A program made the position numbers and the translations under genes. Positions 11,916 to 18,412 of a DNA stretch of 64,000 nt are shown one piece after another. The DNA is from Bradymonadia bacterium. GTDB taxonomy: Bacteria > Myxococcota_A > Bradymonadia > UBA7976 > UBA1532. The DNA is taken from contig JBKAGE010000037.1 in the NCBI GenBank assembly GCA_046290225.1, positions 64,001-128,000 of the forward strand, in the 5' to 3' direction. Numbering within the stretch: the first letter of the stretch is position 1; each line of letters opens with the position of its first letter. Under the pieces are notes generated by a model. The model saw only the letters and a list, made by a program, of their open reading frames with translations. It made no database searches and was not told where the DNA came from.

Positions 11916-12740
11916 ATGACCGTGACACAACGGCTGATCTCCCCACTTCTCCTCGGCGCACTCGCGCTTCTCCCTGCGTGCAAGGGCGACGCGCCCACGC
12001 CACCCGCTGGCGCTCAGAAGAGCGCCAAGGGTGCTCAGAAGGGCACCCCGGCGGTGCCCAACCTGGGCAAGCCCGGTGACGGCTTCGACCTGCCCAAGAT
12101 GCGGTCCAGCCTCGACGGCACCTGGATCATCAACCCCCAGTGGGGTCAGCGCATCGACGTGTGGCACCTCGACGGCAGCAAGGCGAAGCTGCTGCGTGGG
12201 GCTCTGGAGCGCGAGGTGGACGCGCTGGTCGACCTGCACGCCCCCTGTCGGATCCGCTTCACCACCAAGGGGGTCAAAGGCGGACCAGACTTCAGCTGGA
12301 CACGTAACTTCGTGCTCGAAGAGGGCAAATTGTTCGCAGGCCAGGCAGCTACGGGCTTGATCCAGGGCGATCGCACCATCGTCTGCGGGCGCCAGGGCAC
12401 CTTCATCAAGCAAGGCGATCAATGCGCCTATCACCCGATGCTCAAGCCCGGGGCCAAAAAGAACGCCAAGGTCCCTGCACCTGTGGCCGCGAAGTGCAGC
12501 CTCGAGGGTCAGTCCTTCGAGGCCCAGGCAGGCAAGGTGAAGGCGAAGCTCACCCGCCGCGGCGAGATCCTGGTGGCAGACGCGGTCCGACCTCTGGAGA
12601 AGATGCCGAGCTTCGAGGCTGCGAAGACGCGCTTCAGGCAAGCAAGCATGCGCCGACCCGGTGAAGCCCTGGAGCCGATCAAGGGCAGGGTGGAAGACAT
12701 GAAGCCGCCGACCCCCGCACCGAGCAGTCAACCGCAATGA
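11916..12740 (+). CDS. Lipoprotein of unknown function
   Basis: MTVTQRLISPLLLGALALLPAC lipobox; basic, with several Cys. Confidence 0.72.
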   Translation: MTVTQRLISPLLLGALALLPACKGDAPTPPAGAQKSAKGAQKGTPAVPNLGKPGDGFDLPKMRSSLDGTWIINPQWGQRIDVWHLDGSKAKLLRGALEREVDALVDLHAPCRIRFTTKGVKGGPDFSWTRNFVLEEGKLFAGQAATGLIQGDRTIVCGRQGTFIKQGDQCAYHPMLKPGAKKNAKVPAPVAAKCSLEGQSFEAQAGKVKAKLTRRGEILVADAVRPLEKMPSFEAAKTRFRQASMRRPGEALEPIKGRVEDMKPPTPAPSSQPQ

Positions 12741-12892
12741 CGGCCATTCTTCGGGCCATCTGAGCACCCCCGATACATCGTCAGTTGCAGGTGCCCTTCC
12801 GCCGAATCGTCGGAGCACATCTAAAAAAGCTGACAGCGCCCTTCGTGTCCACTAGACACATACTATCGTTCACACACGAAGAGAGCATCCTC

Positions 12893-13249
12893 ATGCGCAT
12901 CCTCGTCGCTGGCGCTGTCGGTTGGACTGATCGCGAAGTCATTCATCGTGAGCTGAGTTGTTGCCCTGAGGCCACCCACATCATCACGGGTGATGCTCCG
13001 GGGGCTGACGCCCTCGCCGAAGAGGTGGGGCAAGGCCTCGGCTTCAGCGTGCAGCGGATGCACAAAAACAAGAAGGATTATGAGCGGTATGGCCGCGGCG
13101 CATGGAAAGGGCTCAATGAGCGCATGCTGGCTCAAGGGCCTGATCGAGTGCTCATTTTCCACCCGGCCATCGAGAAGAGCCGCGGCAGCAAGCACATGGG
13201 CAAGATCGCAGAAGCAGCGGGGGTAGAGGTGCAGGTGTTCAGCGGCTGA
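12893..13249 (+). CDS. SLOG-superfamily protein (DUF2493/YspA-like)
   Basis: MRILVAG, IITGDAPGADALAE, NERML, VLIFH and SRGSKHM motifs; convergent with the tRNA array. Confidence 0.8.
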   Translation: MRILVAGAVGWTDREVIHRELSCCPEATHIITGDAPGADALAEEVGQGLGFSVQRMHKNKKDYERYGRGAWKGLNERMLAQGPDRVLIFHPAIEKSRGSKHMGKIAEAAGVEVQVFSG

Positions 13250-13269
13250 TCACCTGCACCTCTACGTCG

Positions 13270-13353
13270 TACCGGAGGTCGGAGTCGAACCGACAAGGCC
13301 ATCACAGCCAACCTGGTTTGAGCAGGCCGCGTTTACCATTTCGCCACTCCGGC
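13270..13353 (-). tRNA. tRNA-Leu(CAA), class II
   Basis: Acceptor GCCGGAG/CTCCGGT, A73; anticodon arm GCCTG-CTCAAAC-CAGGT; long V arm; T arm GTCGG-TTCGACT-CCGAC. Confidence 0.93.
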
Positions 13354-13406
13354 AAAAGACACCTCGCCTCTCTGAGAGAGACGAGGCGCCCCGCCCCTGA
13401 TCGTGC

Positions 13407-13467
13407 ACGCCATGGATGAGGCTCGAACTGACACAGCCAGATCGTGCTCTGCACTCGCCACGGCGCA
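13407..13467 (-). pseudogene. Possible degenerate tRNA remnant (acceptor plus T-arm-like)
   Basis: GCCGTGG...CCATGGC outer stem and imperfect GTCAG-TTCGAGC-CTCAT arm; no anticodon arm. Confidence 0.35.
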
Positions 13468-13471
13468 TATG

Positions 13472-13558
13472 CGGAAGAGGAGGGAGTCGAACCCCCAAGG
13501 CTTTTCACAGCTCGACCGGGTTCAAACCGGCTGCCGTCACCTGTCGGCTTGCTCTTCC
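13472..13558 (-). tRNA. tRNA-Ser(UGA), class II
   Basis: Acceptor GGAAGAG/CTCTTCC, G73; GCCGG-TTTGAAC-CCGGT; T loop TTCGACT; C at position 8. Confidence 0.92.
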
Positions 13559-13585
13559 AGTTGGGCTACGGTGCTCCGGCTTTTG

Positions 13586-13756
13586 GCTCCGGTGCTCCGG
13601 CCTCATCGCCCGCCATCAGGGCGGCGATCTGGCGCCCAGATGCGGCGCTCCGATCCTCGACGTAGCCTCTGGCTACGCCTGCGGTCGGAACACCACATCT
13701 GAACACCACCTCACCACCCTGCTGACGAGCGCTGCGACCTCCGCACCTCCGCGTGC
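13586..13756 (-). repeat. Structured hairpin repeat, copy A
   Basis: Minus strand reads CGGAGG...long G.T-rich hairpin...CCGCAGGCGTAGCCAGAGGCTACGTCGAGG...GCCGGAGCACCGGAGC; motifs shared with copies B and C. Confidence 0.85.
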
Positions 13757-13832
13757 CCGGCCTGATGTTGGCTCCAGTTTTGTGTTGCTGGAGCCCACGT
13801 TAATCTGGGCCCGTGGACCCTTTGGCTTGTCG

Positions 13833-13917
13833 TGGATGGGGAGGGAATCGAACCCCCGGGGTGCGTACGCACGGCGGGACTACAAGCCGCCCCGGCCCCC
13901 TACCGGTCTACCCATCC
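13833..13917 (-). tRNA. tRNA-Tyr(GUA), class II, atypical (C31.C39 mismatch, G37)
   Basis: Acceptor GGATGGG/CCCATCC, A73; GCGGC-TTGTAGT-CCCGC; V arm GTGCGTACGCAC; T loop TTCGATT. Confidence 0.82.
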
Positions 13918-14016
13918 AAAAATGTTCGCCCACAGGGGCTCGGCAGCTCGTCGATGGGTGAGCACCGCGCATGTGCACTCGATCACCAACCAGACGCTGA
14001 GCCCCTGGGCAAAATG

Positions 14017-14101
14017 TGGACAGGGAGGGAGTCGAACCCACGGGGTGCGTACGCACAGCGGATTTACAGTCCGCTCCGGCCCCCCACCGGACTACCTGTC
14101 C
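14017..14101 (-). tRNA. tRNA-Tyr(GUA), class II
   Basis: Acceptor GGACAGG/CCTGTCC, A73; GCGGA-CTGTAAA-TCCGC; V arm GTGCGTACGCAC; one U.U mismatch in the T stem. Confidence 0.88.
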
Positions 14102-14149
14102 AAAAGGCGCTCATTCACAGGGGTCGAATGACCCCACTCGAACCCAAAG

Positions 14150-14326
14150 CACATATGTACTTGCCCCGCGGAGGCTCTGGGGCTCGGTGGCTGGCCGGTG
14201 AGTGAGTGTGCAGTCGTGGTGGCAAAAGCGCAGGCGTGGCCGGAGGCCCCGTCGAGCATTTTGACGCCGCGAAAGTACGCTCAATCGCCGGCCAGACGCC
14301 GGGCCCCAGAGCCGGAGCGCCGGAGC
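14150..14326 (+). repeat. Structured hairpin repeat, copy B
   Basis: CACATATGTACTTGCCCCGCGGAGGC...hairpin...GCGCAGGCGTGGCCGGAGGCCCCGTCGAGC...GCCGGAGCGCCGGAGC. Confidence 0.85.
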
Positions 14327-14334
14327 AAAAAGTG

Positions 14335-14422
14335 CGGAGGCGGAGGGATTCGAACCCCCACGACCCTTGCGGGCCCTACCAAGGTAGCAACCTGGCCTCT
14401 TCACCAATTTGAGTACGCCTCC
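14335..14422 (-). tRNA. tRNA-Ser(GCU), class II
   Basis: Acceptor GGAGGCG/CGCCTCC, G73; CCAGG-TTGCTAC-CTTGG; V arm GGCCC-GCAA-GGGTC. Confidence 0.93.
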
Positions 14423-14449
14423 ACACAAGGCTGAGCTGTCACGCATCAG

Positions 14450-14534
14450 TGCCGCGAGCCGGATTCGAACCGGCACGACCAAAGGCGGTCCCCGGGCTCT
14501 CAACCCGGTGTGTCTTCCGTTCCACCACCACGGC
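14450..14534 (-). tRNA. tRNA-Leu(GAG), class II
   Basis: Acceptor GCCGTGG/TCGCGGC, A73; CCGGG-TTGAGAG-CCCGG; V arm GACC..GGTC; GCCGG-TTCGAAT-CCGGC. Confidence 0.92.
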
Positions 14535-14543
14535 AAAAATCAG

Positions 14544-14630
14544 CGGAAGAGGAGGGAGTCGAACCCCCAAGGCCCTTTCGAGCTCACCCGTATTCGAAAC
14601 GGGCGCCATCACCCATTGGCTTGCTCTTCC
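14544..14630 (-). tRNA. tRNA-Ser(CGA), class II
   Basis: Acceptor GGAAGAG/CTCTTCC, G73; CCCGT-TTCGAAT-ACGGG; close paralog of Ser(UGA); C8. Confidence 0.92.
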
Positions 14631-14663
14631 GTATGGCTCCAGAGCTTCAGCCATGGAGCACTG

Positions 14664-14748
14664 TGGACAAGGAGAGAGTCGAACTCCCGAGGTGCGTACG
14701 CACGACGCGTTTACAGCGCGCTCCGGTCCCCTACCGGCCTACCTGTCC
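14664..14748 (-). tRNA. tRNA-Tyr(GUA), class II
   Basis: Acceptor GGACAGG/CTTGTCC, A73; GCGCG-CTGTAAA-CGCGT; V arm GTGCGTACGCAC. Confidence 0.88.
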
Positions 14749-14756
14749 TCAAAATG

Positions 14757-14845
14757 CGGAAGCGGCGGGAGTCGAACCCGCAGTGCCTTTCACGGCACAC
14801 CTGTTTTCCGGACAGGCGCGGCGAACCGATATCCGCCTCGCTTCC
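14757..14845 (-). tRNA. tRNA-Ser(GGA), class II, atypical (A8, C33)
   Basis: Acceptor GGAAGCG/CGCTTCC, G73; CCTGT-CCGGAAA-ACAGG; V arm GTGCC-GTGAAA-GGCAC; all stems perfectly paired. Confidence 0.87.
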
Positions 14846-14983
14846 AAACATCACACACATGTATCCCACCAGCATGCCGACGCAATACAACCATCTCATC
14901 AACACGCAACATGAAGACGCGATACACACGTGTATCAAACGGCACGCACCTACCATCGCCGCCAGAGATCAGAAGTCAGGAAG

Positions 14984-15067
14984 TGCCCGGGGTGAGATTC
15001 GAACTCACACGTCCTCACGGACACCGGCTTCTGAGGCCGGCGCGTCTACCAGTTCCGCCACCCGGGC
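14984..15067 (-). tRNA. tRNA-Leu(CAG), class II; first gene of the array
   Basis: Acceptor GCCCGGG/CCCGGGC, A73; CCGGC-CTCAGAA-GCCGG; V arm GTCC-GTGA-GGAC. Confidence 0.95.
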
Positions 15068-15174
15068 ATATGGATCCCCAGCGACGATGGCAGGCACGGC
15101 ACATCGTGAGCACACACCCACAATGCTTTTATTTTCTAAGGCTTATGTGCCCTCACGAGCATCAACCGAGGCAC

Positions 15175-15209
15175 AAAAAAAGCCCCTCGGCAGATGCCTG
15201 AGGGGCTTT
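15175..15209 (-). terminator. Intrinsic terminator (attenuator) upstream of the tRNA array
   Basis: AAAGCCCCTC-AGGCATCTGCC-GAGGGGC followed by T7. Confidence 0.92.
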
Positions 15210-15247
15210 CGTGCGAAGACCGGCAGGCCTCAGCTCGAACTCCCCTC
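15200..15247 (-). promoter_or_regulatory. Antiterminator hairpin overlapping the leader stop codon and the terminator 5' arm
   Basis: GAGGGGAGTTCGAGCTGAGGCC-TGCC-GGTCTTCGCACGAAAGCCCCTC: 18 of 22 positions pair (2 are G.U), sequestering the terminator's AAAGCCCCTC arm. Confidence 0.82.
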
Positions 15248-15337
15248 GAGGGCACTCAGAAGCAACGACGCGCAATAAGACAGGCGCAAGTCGAGGCTTG
15301 AGAGGCGAGAGTTGGAGGTGTTCGAGATGAAGTGCAT
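15230..15337 (-). CDS. Ser/Leu/Tyr-rich leader peptide, 35 aa (MHFISNTSNSRLSSLDLRLSYCASLLLSALEGSSS)
   Basis: AAGGGA RBS 8 nt before the ATG; 11 Ser, 8 Leu and 1 Tyr codons; lies between the promoter and terminator; below the ORF-track size cut-off. Confidence 0.85.
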   Translation of the reverse strand: MHFISNTSNSRLSSLDLRLSYCASLLLSALEGSSS

Positions 15338-15365
15338 GAGAACTATCCCTTGTTGAGTGACTCGA

Positions 15366-15394
15366 AAGGTAGCGGCATAGTCTGACTGTGTCAA
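15366..15394 (-). promoter_or_regulatory. Sigma70-type promoter of the leader/tRNA operon
   Basis: TTGACA-N17-TACCTT with an A/T-rich UP-like tract upstream; predicted start ~15359. Confidence 0.85.
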
Positions 15395-15477
15395 AGACAT
15401 TTTTCACATGACAGTCATTTTTCTATTTCGGCCCACTCTGAGCACACCGACAGTCAGCCACTCGGGCTGTAGTATCC

Positions 15478-15996
15478 TCAGGGGACCCATATCTCCTCCC
15501 GGATCGCCCAGCGCTCGTGATCACGCCATGCACCATCCAAAAAGAGGTAGCTCTTGGAGTAGCCCTCACGCTCGAAGCCCACCCGCTTCACGAGCTGAAT
15601 CGATCGCATGTTCTCGGGCCGGATGTTGGCCTCAAGACGGTGCAAGCCGATGCGAGAAAACGCCCACTCCAGACAGCTGTGCATCCCCTCCTCCATCTTC
15701 CCTGAACCCGCATGGGGCAAGAAGGCGCCGTAACCCATGTACGCGCTGCGGAACAGGCCCATGGAGATCTGGCTGAGGTTGAACACCCCCGCGGGCTCCC
15801 CTGAGGCCTGATCGATCAACACAAGAGTGCGAAAGGCATCGCTCTGCCGATCGATGAGCAGCTGGAACGCCTCTACCGTACGCGCCGTAGAAAACCAGGG
15901 CCCGTGCAGGGAGACACTGGCCTGCGCCGCCGCGATGAACGCCATCTCGTCTTCAGGCACCAATGGTCGGAGTAGAGTTCTTGCGCTCGAGATCAA
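15478..15996 (-). CDS. RimJ/RimL-family GNAT N-acetyltransferase (second paralog)
   Basis: FRSAYMGY...GSGKMEEG, LHRLEANIRPENMRS and GFEREGYSKSYL.LDGAWRDH; TTG start 15996 after GGAGG. Confidence 0.88.
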   Translation of the reverse strand: MISSARTLLRPLVPEDEMAFIAAAQASVSLHGPWFSTARTVEAFQLLIDRQSDAFRTLVLIDQASGEPAGVFNLSQISMGLFRSAYMGYGAFLPHAGSGKMEEGMHSCLEWAFSRIGLHRLEANIRPENMRSIQLVKRVGFEREGYSKSYLFLDGAWRDHERWAIREEIWVP

Positions 15997-16118
15997 ATCT
16001 GCACCTCCTCGTGCGGTGTTCGCGACATATTCTATGCGCAATTGCGATGTCCTCCCCTTGCTCTTGATGCACGCCTGAGGCACAACCGTTCTCTTGAACA
16101 TCGCCCCCAGGAGCCCCC

Positions 16119-17141
16119 ATGAACGCCCCCGAGATTCGACATGACTGGACCCGTGGCGAGATCAGGGCCCTCTTCGATCTGCCCTTCAACGATCTGCTCT
16201 TTCGGGCTCAGAGCGCCCACCGGCGCCACTTCGATCCCAACCGGGTACAGCTGAGCACCCTGCTCAGCATCAAGACCGGCTCTTGCCCCGAAGACTGCGC
16301 CTACTGCCCTCAGAGCGCGCGGTACGACACCGGCCTCGAGTCCGAGCGGCTGATGCCTCTCGAAGAGGTGCTCCAGCGGGCCCAGGCGGCCAAGGATGCA
16401 GGGGCCACGCGGTTCTGCATGGGGGCCGCCTGGCGCAACCCCAAGGATCGAGACCTCGACAAGGTCTGCGACATGGTCGTCGGTGTGCGTAAGCTCGGGC
16501 TCGAGACCTGCGTCACTCTGGGCATGCTCAAAGAGACACAGGCGAGACGCCTCAAAGAGGCAGGCCTGGACTACTACAACCACAACATCGACACCGATCC
16601 CGAGATGTACGGTGACATCATCACCACCCGCACCTTTCAGGATCGACTCGACACCCTTGAGCACGTGCGCGAAGCGGGCATGAAGGTGTGTTGCGGCGGC
16701 ATCGTGGGTATGGGCGAGAGCCGCGATCAGCGCGCGGGCATGCTGCTCACCCTGGCCAACATGCCCAGCCACCCCGAGAGCGTGCCCATCAACATGCTGG
16801 TTCAGGTCGAGGGCACTCCGCTGCACGGATCCGACAGCCTCGATCCACTGGAGTTCATCCGCACCATCGCCGTGGCGCGTATCCTGATGCCTCGATCGAG
16901 GGTCCGGCTCTCCGCTGGCCGTCGCCAGATGGACGACAGCACTCAGGCCTTGTGCTTCTTCGCCGGCGCAAACTCCATCTTCTATGGCGATCAGCTGCTC
17001 ACCACGGGCAACCCCGACGTGATCCGTGATCAGACCCTCCTCACCCGCCTGGGCATCGAAGCCGACGGCATGCCCACCGATGATGTAGAGCCGCCCACCT
17101 CAGTACACCCCGGCCACTGCCCCATCGAGGACCTGCCTTGA
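16119..17141 (+). CDS. bioB: Biotin synthase
   Basis: [17 protein letters not shown] radical-SAM motif, [25 protein letters not shown]. Confidence 0.97.
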
Positions 17142-18412
17142 GCGATGGCTCGAGCTGGCTCGACGGCCCCGGCCGTCATCTCTGGCGCCCTTACACGCAG
17201 ATGCTCACCGAGTTGGCCCCCTTGAAGGCCGTGGCCACCGAGGGCGTGTACATCGAGCTCGAAGACGGGCGCCGACTCGTCGACGGGACCTCGTCGTGGT
17301 GGACGGCCTGTCACGGCTACAACCACCCCTACATCCGTGAGCGCGTCATCGAGCAGCTGCACGCGATGCCTCACGTGATGTTCGGTGGGCTCTACCACGC
17401 CCCCGCCCTCGAGCTGGCCACACGCCTCGCACAGCTGCTCCCCGGAGATCTCGCCCACGCGTTCTTTGCCGAGTCAGGCTCGGTCTCGGTGGAAGTGGCC
17501 ATGAAGATGGCGGCGCAGTTCTGGCTCAACCAGGGTCAGCGTCGTACGCGCTTCGTGAGCTTCCTCGGGGGCTATCACGGCGACACCCTGGCCACCATGA
17601 GCGTGTGTGATCCCGAAGAAGGCATGCACGGCATGTTCAAAGGGCTGCTCGCAGATCAGCTCGTGATCCCGTTGCCTGTGGATGACGCCTCTCGAGCTGA
17701 CTTCGTCGGCACGCTTAAGCGTCACCGACACGAGGTGGCTGCGGTCATCATGGAGCCCCTGATGCAGGGCGCCGGTGGCATGCGATTGCACAGCCCGGAG
17801 ACACTCGCCTTCATCCGAGAGGCCTGCACCGCCCACGATGTGCTCTTGATCCTCGACGAGATCGCCACGGGCTTCGGCCGCACGGGCACTCTCTTCGCCT
17901 GCGAGCAGGCTGATGTGATCCCCGACATCATCACCCTCTCCAAGGCGCTCACCGGCGGCACCCTGCCCCTCTCGGCGGCGGTGGCCTCCACCCGCATCTT
18001 CGAGGGCTTCCTCAGCGAGGATCCGCTCAAAGCGCTGATGCACGGCCCCACCTATATGGCCAACCCCATGGGCTGCACCGCAGCTCTGGCCAGCCTCGAT
18101 CTGTTCGAGCGCGAGCCCCGCATCGCCCAGGTGAAAGCCATCGAGTCCCAGCTCGCCTCTGGCCTCACCTCCCTCGCCGATCTCGATCACGTCGTCGATG
18201 TCCGGGTGCTCGGCGCGATGGGCGCGGTCCAGCTCAAAAAGGGCCCCAAAGGCCTGCCCCTCGACGCCATGCGCCAGGCCTTCGCCGATCGCGGTGTGTG
18301 GGTGAGGCCCTTCGGCGACGTGGTCTACCTGATGCCCCCCTTCATCATCGAAACACCACAACTCGAGCTCCTCATCGAGGCCGTAAAAGACGTCGTCACC
18401 ACCTTCAGATAA
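17138..18412 (+). CDS. bioA: Adenosylmethionine-8-amino-7-oxononanoate aminotransferase
   Basis: [33 protein letters not shown] and SKALTGG; overlaps the bioB stop. Confidence 0.96.

What the first reader, a model, noticed from the sequence alone, without database searches (positions are those of the whole stretch)
15230..15337. Leader codon set mirrors the array's decoding set
SEEN: the leader uses all six Ser codons (UCG x3, UCU x2, AGC x2, AGU x2, UCC, UCA), four Leu codons (CUC x3, UUG x2, CUG x2, CUU) and Tyr UAU. All 8 anticodon types in the array have a cognate codon. The two absent Leu codons (CUA, UUA) are those needing tRNA-Leu(UAG)/(UAA), which the array lacks. INFERRED: the peptide is an isoacceptor-by-isoacceptor sensor, unlike the single-amino-acid runs of biosynthetic attenuators. 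Caveats: CUA/UUA are rare in GC-rich genomes anyway, and Tyr is represented only once.
Basis: partly seen in the sequence, partly recalled or inferred. Interest (0 to 1): 0.8.

Follow-up and report, generated by a model that had tools for sequence, protein, structure and literature searches.

The report
Leader-peptide switch on spare tRNAs
A tiny translated test gene, written mostly in leucine, serine and tyrosine codons, sits in a stop-or-go RNA switch in front of this bacterium's spare leucine, serine and tyrosine tRNA genes, and five other spare tRNA blocks in the same genome have their own matching test genes, so the cell probably makes each spare tRNA set only when ribosomes stumble on those codons.

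Summary
The codon counts are exactly right, and the Ser/Leu/Tyr enrichment is real (20 of 34 codons, p 4e-8; 2 of 28,429 short ORFs reach it). The 'codon mirror' is not: full Ser coverage and missing CUA/UUA are what chance gives. What is really there is a classical-type transcription attenuator (promoter, SD, leader, antiterminator, terminator) gating a 10-gene array of divergent, spare long-arm tRNAs. Folding gives three states: terminator with no ribosome, antiterminator with a stall at codons 5-24, terminator past codon 28. The same genome splits a second tRNA set (18 amino acids) into six blocks. Each block's leader is enriched only for its own amino acids. Other genomes split the set differently and the leaders follow (31 outside loci, permutation p<1e-5), including planctomycete long arrays with a covarying switch. 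Matching is by amino acid, only weakly by isoacceptor. Most likely a feedback sensor of slow decoding or tRNA loss; nothing was shown experimentally. No paper found in nine searches. This scan noted the same idea before on other DNA (474 notes, mostly phages; some marked in doubt, one bacterial case upheld).

The parts
15366..15394 (-). sigma70-type promoter, TTGACA-17-TACCTT (inferred)
   Evidence: similar boxes with 16-17 nt spacers stand before all 6 leaders of this genome; missed by the stricter scan
15346..15351 (-). Shine-Dalgarno-like AAGGGA, 8 nt before the ATG
15230..15337 (-). 35-codon leader ORF, 20 of 34 codons Ser/Leu/Tyr; predicted sensing window codons about 5-25, which holds a codon for all 8 anticodon types
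15310..15326 (-). approximate protector segment (codons about 5-10) that pairs with the antiterminator segment when no ribosome is loaded
   Evidence: P(terminator) 0.99-1.0 without ribosome
15242..15247 (-). antiterminator segment GAGGGG (codons 31-32), pairs with 15205-15200 of the terminator 5' arm
15175..15207 (-). intrinsic terminator: GC-rich hairpin (arms 15207-15200 and 15188-15181) and seven U, 22 nt after the stop codon
   Evidence: (z -4.3 for 15150-15345)
14983..15067 (-). tRNA-Leu(CAG), first gene of the array
14756..14845 (-). tRNA-Ser(GGA), atypical D arm
14663..14748 (-). tRNA-Tyr(GUA), atypical
14543..14630 (-). tRNA-Ser(CGA), long-array type
14449..14534 (-). tRNA-Leu(GAG)
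14334..14422 (-). tRNA-Ser(GCU)
14016..14101 (-). tRNA-Tyr(GUA), second copy
13832..13917 (-). third Tyr-like paralogue, probably degenerate (ARAGORN calls Thr(UGU))
13471..13558 (-). tRNA-Ser(UGA), long-array type
13269..13353 (-). tRNA-Leu(CAA), last gene of the array

Best explanation
A ribosome-coupled transcription attenuator whose output is the tRNAs it tests. RNA polymerase starts about 20 nt before the leader and a ribosome follows. If the Leu/Ser/Tyr codons are decoded normally, the ribosome passes codon 28, covers the GAGGGG segment, the terminator forms and transcription stops about 108 nt before the first tRNA. If the ribosome lingers at codons 5-24 because working Leu/Ser/Tyr tRNA is short, GAGGGG pairs with the terminator's 5' arm and the ten spare tRNAs are made; they then speed the leader up and shut the array off (negative feedback). 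Untranslated, a protector helix leaves the terminator on. The genome has six such modules covering 18 amino acids. Shown: the anatomy, the amino-acid match, the in-silico three-state fold, replication. Inferred: translation of the leader, attenuation in vivo, activity of the tRNAs, and the trigger. Loss or inactivation of the housekeeping tRNAs is the trigger I favour, since extra tRNA does not cure amino-acid starvation.
For: Leader x array matrix in G000 is diagonal for 6 of 6 leaders: LSY 20/34 p 4e-8, DEFQ 17/31 p 2e-5, RKVI 20/34 p 1e-6, ATG 24/58 p 1e-2, CMP 14/36 p 2e-6, W 2/25 p 0.05; all 30 off-diagonal p at least 0.19. A composition-blind rule (terminator plus ORF stop 10-45 nt upstream) hits 5 of 47 tRNA loci of G000, all spare ones, and 2 of 111 single tRNAs against 21 of 60 arrays of 4-12 genes and 17 of 35 longer ones. 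Permutation of leaders against array sets: sum z 56 vs permuted maximum 32 in 100,000 for 31 loci outside G000; 34.5 vs 27.7 for the 17 not cut at the 3' end; 14.9 vs 13.5 for 12 planctomycete-type loci. G073 and G414 use other partitions (NCGFAT; S; CRW; FQLM; YGV plus KIA) and their leaders follow. Window fold: P(terminator) 0.99 without ribosome, 5' arm held upstream 0.67-0.82 at codons 5-24, terminator 1.0 from codon 28; 0 of 3 codon shuffles switch. All five G000 leaders with a terminator pair their last codons with the 5' arm (P 0.66-0.94). In 24 planctomycete-type loci the antiterminator starts at the stop codon: 83% of cells paired vs 26-44% when slid, covariation score reached by 3 of 500 shuffles. 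The genome has a full housekeeping set elsewhere; the array tRNAs are 56-77% identical to it.
Against: No expression data: no RNA holder was listed. The equilibrium switch appeared in only 23 of 47 leaders, against 23 of 160 shuffles (criteria differed slightly between calls). It was missed for 3 of the 5 G000 modules tested, and for the other Leu/Ser/Tyr leader L031. ORF-to-5'-arm pairing over all 46 leaders was not above shuffles (Wilcoxon p 0.34), because the planctomycete type pairs after the stop. For the planctomycete antiterminator, cells with double changes were reached by 36 of 500 shuffles and only 2 pairs covary. The blind rule picked the wrong frame at the Ala/Thr/Gly array (z -0.8; the GUG-start leader was picked by eye) and missed the Cys/Met/Pro array, which has no U tract. 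8 of 36 scored loci had z below 0. Many arrays, including most of the viral ones, had no leader by the rule. The G414 His/Asn/Asp/Pro/Glu/Leu array has a terminator but no matched leader call. Kin are not independent. Earlier notes of the same claim on phages were marked in doubt for reasons I could not see.
Confidence: 0.83

Rival explanations
1. Strict isoacceptor mirror: the leader's codon set is tuned to match the array's anticodons one by one and to leave out codons the array cannot read.
For: All 20 cognate codons of this leader are readable by the array. Its cognate codons are far from the genome's preferred ones (CAI-like 0.40 vs 0.87 for its other codons). Four G000 leaders cover 30 of 32 anticodons vs 25.9 under gene usage (p 0.012). 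Over 21 leaders 343 of 430 codons are readable vs 328 permuted (p 0.011).
Against: Against non-coding or uniform usage the coverage is ordinary (p 0.24-0.31). G000 alone shows no excess (p 0.88). 87 of 430 cognate codons are unreadable, e.g. GCA x3 and CCA/CCG in G000, CUA/CUG/UCC in G073. A CUA variant is seen in one low-depth contig. The 2x2 test (odds ratio 4.4) is confounded by codon rarity.
Confidence: 0.12
2. A general translation-stress sensor (like the whiB7 or toiL uORFs): any ribosome slowing, by antibiotics for example, opens the arrays, and the amino-acid match only sets sensitivity.
For: In the fold any stall at codons 5-24 antiterminates, whatever its cause. The Anabaena long array is induced by ribosome-targeting antibiotics (PMC8421152, parts 3-4 read). 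Complete long arrays have leaders of mixed composition.
Against: A general sensor needs no six separate, mutually exclusive compositions that re-sort with array content in other genomes. This reading is compatible with the best explanation as a second input.
Confidence: 0.15
3. An amino-acid starvation response: the leader senses uncharged tRNA as in biosynthetic operons, and the divergent tRNAs serve a role other than topping up decoding (altered charging competition, signalling, decoys).
For: Starvation for Ser, Leu or Tyr would stall this leader as in trpL or thrL (established mechanism, recalled). The tRNAs have odd D arms and one looks degenerate.
Against: No biosynthetic or synthetase gene lies in the operon. 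The groupings follow no shared pathway and differ between genomes. Discriminator bases fit normal charging (Leu A73, Ser G73, Tyr A73).
Confidence: 0.12
4. Chance ORF in front of a plain silencing terminator; the composition comes from RNA structure or low complexity.
For: The last five codons are constrained by pairing; Ser and Leu are six-codon amino acids.
Against: 2 of 28,429 short ORFs match the composition and both are poly-Ser runs; six-fold internal and 31-locus external matching; both variant positions in the ORF are synonymous third positions (weak).
Confidence: 0.02

Closest known systems
Multivalent leader-peptide transcription attenuators of enterobacteria (ilvGMEDA, ilvBN, thrL) and the pheM leader of pheST (recalled; pheL seen only as a search listing, PMC3082878)
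   Same: Short translated leader with control codons for several amino acids; protector, antiterminator and terminator; read-through when the ribosome stalls; charged tRNA is the signal.
   Different: The controlled genes are the tRNAs that read the control codons, not enzymes or a synthetase. Control codons fill the leader instead of forming a run. One genome runs six modules in parallel over 18 amino acids.
Long tRNA arrays (L-arrays), Anabaena trn operon (PMC8421152: term search and parts 3-4 of 10 read; PMC10272220: term search passages read)
   Same: Supernumerary, divergent tRNAs beside a full housekeeping set; patchy spread; the same atypical tRNA-Ser family stands in planctomycete and actinomycete long arrays; proposed role in translational stress.
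   Different: trn is one 26-gene operon repressed at the promoter by TrcR; neither paper contains 'leader' or 'attenuat'. Here the set is split by amino acid and gated after initiation.
Stress-sensing uORF attenuators (whiB7, toiL-topAI, mycobacterial polycysteine ORFs; search listings and abstract starts only)
   Same: uORF translation controls read-through into stress genes.
   Different: They control protein genes; no matching of codons to downstream tRNAs.
T-box riboswitch (recalled)
   Same: Senses tRNA supply through a terminator/antiterminator switch.
   Different: Binds tRNA directly with no translated leader; Rfam found no T-box or leader family in 12700-16200.

Membership tests
Leader-peptide transcription attenuator | Short ORF with ribosome-binding site between promoter and controlled genes | tested here: met
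Leader-peptide transcription attenuator | Control codons matched to the function of the downstream genes | tested here: met
Leader-peptide transcription attenuator | Intrinsic terminator with a mutually exclusive antiterminator overlapping the ORF end | tested here: met
   in silico; covariation in the planctomycete type
Leader-peptide transcription attenuator | Switch depends on ribosome position; terminator forms when untranslated | tested here: met
   equilibrium simulation for this leader; seen in 23 of 47 leaders overall
Leader-peptide transcription attenuator | Leader translated and read-through regulated in vivo; polymerase pause site | not testable with these tools
   no RNA run listed
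Amino-acid biosynthetic or synthetase operon attenuator | Downstream genes are enzymes or synthetases for the control amino acid | tested here: not met
   downstream are ten tRNA genes; the flanks are a SLOG-family ORF on the other strand and a GNAT gene upstream
L-array (long tRNA array) | Supernumerary, divergent tRNAs with patchy distribution | tested here: met
   similar Ser/Tyr segment in 1 of 85 other class genomes; motif in 1 of 400 other phylum genomes, and that hit had no tRNA
L-array (long tRNA array) | One long array with most amino acids | tested here: not met
   six blocks of 1-11 genes on separate contigs or loci
L-array (Anabaena type) | TrcR repressor site over the -10 box | not tested
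   no TrcR search run; a different shared promoter motif was noted post hoc
T-box riboswitch | Rfam T-box stem I and antiterminator bulge | tested here: not met
Arrest peptides (TnaC/SecM type) | Conserved nascent-peptide arrest motif | tested here: inconclusive
   leaders of G000, G073 and G414 share no peptide motif beyond Gly-Gly or Glu-Gly dictated by pairing; planctomycete leaders often end in Leu/Met-Arg-Leu, unexplained

The most novel reading that the evidence does not exclude
A cell-wide tRNA surveillance panel: a horizontally acquired second tRNA set, cut into amino-acid modules, each switched on by its own leader when toxins, anticodon nucleases or the cell's own antiphage defences destroy or block that group of housekeeping tRNAs, and supplying sequence-divergent replacements that escape the attack. 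Leaders would co-evolve with array content each time an array is split, and this would be the usual control of spare tRNA arrays outside cyanobacteria.
Probability: 0.45. Interest if true: 0.9.

Novelty: new variant of a known kind. Interest (0 to 1): 0.78.

Why it matters
How the supernumerary tRNA arrays of bacteria and phages are controlled, and what they are for, is open; only the Anabaena repressor is described in the papers I found. A leader that lists the amino acids of the tRNAs behind it gives a direct hypothesis (supply on demand, by feedback on decoding speed) and a way to read from sequence what each array responds to. It extends attenuation to tRNA genes as the controlled product. 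It is testable in a cultured strain: the Zavarzinella formosa array L042 has a leader with 86% cognate codons for a 10-amino-acid set. The modules are also ready-made in-vivo sensors of tRNA-group availability.

Tried and rejected
Exact codon mirror: rejected. Rfam: only tRNA hits and sub-threshold sX4/plastid matches. The promoter/terminator scan missed both elements because its patterns are strict. Pfam: no family for the leader. BLAST of the array against 40 relatives hit only single tRNAs; 19 loci examined held one tRNA each. The motif hit in G389 had no tRNA. The Gln/Asp/Glu query over 300 phylum genomes returned only housekeeping Lys-Glu pairs without leaders. Sequencing runs: no RNA holder listed; three DNA runs with small shares were laid and cover the locus only in pieces. 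No RtcB, synthetase or toxin gene among 26 ORFs scanned beside the other arrays. ARAGORN's Thr(UGU) was re-read as Tyr-like and handled so. L095 duplicates L031 and was left out; 39 metagenome loci of 626 nt or less (L218-L256) were left out; clusters with under 400 nt upstream were dropped (62 of 316). The 21 leaders of the codon tests were chosen by me from those with small arrays and a visible match, so those tests are not blind. Literature: nine searches found no description of leader-peptide attenuation of tRNA genes; subscription journals are mostly not covered and no supplements were read.

Full report
Observation. It lies 163 nt upstream of ten same-strand tRNA genes, all long-variable-arm types: Leu CAG, GAG, CAA; Ser GGA, CGA, GCU, UGA; Tyr GUA twice; and a third Tyr-like gene that ARAGORN calls Thr. 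Ser+Leu+Tyr make 20 of 34 codons after the start, against 5.7 expected (p 4.4e-8); 2 of 28,429 short ORFs in the genome reach that fraction, both poly-Ser runs. The finer claim fails: all six Ser codons in 11 draws has p 0.09-0.36, no CUA/UUA in 8 Leu has p 0.68-0.92 under realistic usage, and covering 8 of 8 anticodons has p 0.24-0.64.

Anatomy. Upstream are TTGACA-17-TACCTT (15394-15366) and an SD-like AAGGGA 8 nt before the ATG. A GC-rich hairpin with seven U starts 22 nt after the stop (15207-15175). Sliding a ribosome footprint along the transcript gives three states. Without a ribosome the early leader pairs with the leader end and the terminator forms (P 0.99-1.0). With the A site at codons 5-24, GAGGGG (codons 31-32) captures the terminator's 5' arm (P 0.67-0.82 with the 3' arm present, 0.86 before it is made). 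From codon 28 the terminator forms (P 1.0). None of three codon shuffles switched. This is equilibrium folding, not kinetics.

The same genome. G000 (8.58 Mb, 64% GC) has a full housekeeping tRNA set and further divergent tRNAs in separate blocks; the window's are 56-77% identical to their housekeeping counterparts. Five other blocks have their own leader: Asp/Glu/Phe/Gln (17 of 31 cognate), Arg/Lys/Val/Ile (20 of 34; the array runs off contig C20 and two more Arg genes start C24), Ala/Thr/Gly (GUG start, 24 of 58), Cys/Met/Pro (GUG start, 14 of 36; the CAU tRNA scores below the Rfam cut-off) and a lone Trp (Trp-Trp). Every leader is enriched only for its own set; all 30 off-diagonal tests have p of at least 0.19. 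All six have a TTG-type -35 box and a TA-type -10 box 16-17 nt apart. A composition-blind rule hits 5 of 47 tRNA loci, all spare ones. It picks the wrong frame at Ala/Thr/Gly and misses Cys/Met/Pro, which lacks a U tract; those two leaders were picked by eye. Together the six blocks cover 18 amino acids; spare His and Asn genes sit elsewhere behind a sigma54-like site.

Other genomes. The arrays are rare among kin: 1 of 85 other class genomes, no true hit among 400 phylum genomes by motif. That one genome, G073, has a Leu/Ser/Tyr array with an unrelated Ser/Leu/Tyr-rich leader (21 of 35) and terminator, and an Asn/Cys/Gly/Phe/Ala/Thr array with two tandem leader-terminator units (0.74 and 0.80 cognate). 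G414 splits its set differently: Ser x5 with a poly-Ser leader; Cys/Arg/Trp; Phe/Gln/Leu/Met; Tyr/Gly/Val with a leader also rich in Lys/Ile/Ala, whose tRNAs start another contig (joins inferred from contig ends). Of 254 clusters with at least 400 nt upstream, 46 met the rule: 2 of 111 singles, 6 of 48 with 2-3 genes, 21 of 60 with 4-12, 17 of 35 longer. For the 36 with at most 12 amino-acid types, own-set enrichment summed to z 74 against a permuted maximum of 36; without G000, 56 against 32 (n 31); none of 100,000 permutations reached the observed value. Eight of the 36 had negative z, and kin are not independent. The motif search selected arrays holding one tRNA-Ser family, so the sample is biased.

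Two switch layouts. In 16 of 46 leaders, including all five G000 leaders with a terminator, the last codons pair with the terminator arm. In 24 mostly planctomycete loci the antiterminator begins at the stop codon itself: 83% of cells paired against 26-44% for slid partners, covariation score reached by 3 of 500 shuffles, though only two pairs change on both sides; the terminator is 94% paired, 0 of 500. Against this, the ribosome-sliding test switched in only 23 of 47 leaders versus 23 of 160 shuffles, and ORF pairing over all 46 was not above shuffles (p 0.34).

Amino acid or isoacceptor? Over 21 hand-chosen leaders 343 of 430 cognate codons are readable by their array, versus 328 after shuffling synonymous codons among leaders (p 0.011; 373 vs 355 with superwobble, p 0.0008); in G000 84 of 91 versus 85. 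The G073 Leu/Ser/Tyr leader uses CUA, CUG and UCC without called tRNAs for them. One contig of depth 2.9 from a near-identical strain changes Leu codons 19 and 30 synonymously, the first to CUA (may be error). Leaders use a broad, unoptimised codon mix, which samples most isoacceptors, but they do not mirror the array.

Mechanism. The best reading is feedback attenuation: slow decoding of a codon group lets polymerase through into the tRNAs that read it. What slows decoding in nature is inferred. More tRNA does not cure starvation, the spare tRNAs are divergent, and the Anabaena array helps survival under translational stress (PMC8421152, parts 3-4 read), so loss or blocking of housekeeping tRNAs is my preferred trigger; antibiotics and starvation would also stall the leader. 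No expression data were available.

Relation to the known. It works like the multivalent attenuators of ilvGMEDA or thrL (recalled) and meets the sequence-testable features of that class, but controls tRNA genes. The tRNAs belong with long-array tRNAs, whose only described control that I found is the TrcR repressor (PMC10272220, passages); neither paper mentions leaders or attenuation, nor does the irregular-tRNA paper PMC5389517 (passages). Nine searches found no account of this control; closed journals and supplements were not seen. This scan has noted the idea before: 474 notes in at least 382 genomes, mostly phages, several marked in doubt and one bacterial Leu/Tyr/Ser case upheld. I formed the reading before looking, and these notes are not evidence. 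What this locus adds is a six-module internal control in one bacterial genome, re-sorted partitions in two more, a blind cross-locus test, and a negative result for the strict codon mirror.

Verdict. Real feature; new variant of a known kind; attenuator reading 0.83; interest 0.78.

Noticed in passing
L029:4632-5660 (G000:C34:374632-375658, +): Behind a sigma54-like site: three tRNA-like genes with an enlarged anticodon arm carrying a shared motif that also recurs outside tRNA bodies, two atypical tRNA-Pro genes, then a 589-aa TROVE-domain gene. May be Ro60/Y-RNA-related; not resolved.
   Followed up: partly
L028:3995-4900 (G000:C14:27995-28900, -): A 73-nt tRNA with anticodon CUA (amber-suppressor-like) at the end of a small operon whose first gene ends in UAG and whose second resembles a peptidyl-tRNA hydrolase by eye.
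   Followed up: no
window 15389-15456 and the five other leader promoters: An ACAGTCA/TGACTGT-like motif lies in or beside the promoter of 5 of 6 modules (three copies here, one inverted pair) against 0.07 per 200 nt genome-wide (motif defined post hoc). Possible shared repressor, a second layer of control.
   Followed up: partly
L026:4124-4237 (G000:C42:38124, +): The Cys/Met/Pro leader also has five His codons, yet no His tRNA was found in that block, which has a nucleoside-hydrolase gene inside and no U-tract terminator.
   Followed up: no
L025:4100-4500 (G000:C44:41225-41498, +): Atypical tRNA-Asn and tRNA-His behind a sigma54-like site with no leader-terminator: the two amino acids missing from the attenuated modules.
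   Followed up: partly
L099 (G073:C658), about 650 and 350 nt upstream of the array: Two complete leader-terminator units in tandem before one array, both matched to it.
   Followed up: partly
window 13575-13760 and 14170-14330: Copies of a dispersed palindromic repeat of about 160-180 nt inside the array; BLAST shows further copies on C36, C38, C47, C75, C82.
   Followed up: no
G000 tRNA-Arg(GCG) at C20:480-555 and many long arrays: Spare sets carry Arg(GCG), and some Ile(UAU) or Gly(ACC), anticodons rare in bacterial housekeeping sets (rarity recalled).
   Followed up: no
L041, L045, L047, L051, L052, L057, L060, L069: In Rubrivirga/Rhodothermales-type genomes the atypical tRNA-Ser(UGA) stands alone with no leader or terminator found; it may have become a housekeeping gene there.
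   Followed up: no
window 15478-18412: Upstream neighbours are a GNAT acetyltransferase gene on the same strand and a divergent bioB-bioA pair; downstream a SLOG-family ORF converges on the array. No link to the array seen.
   Followed up: partly
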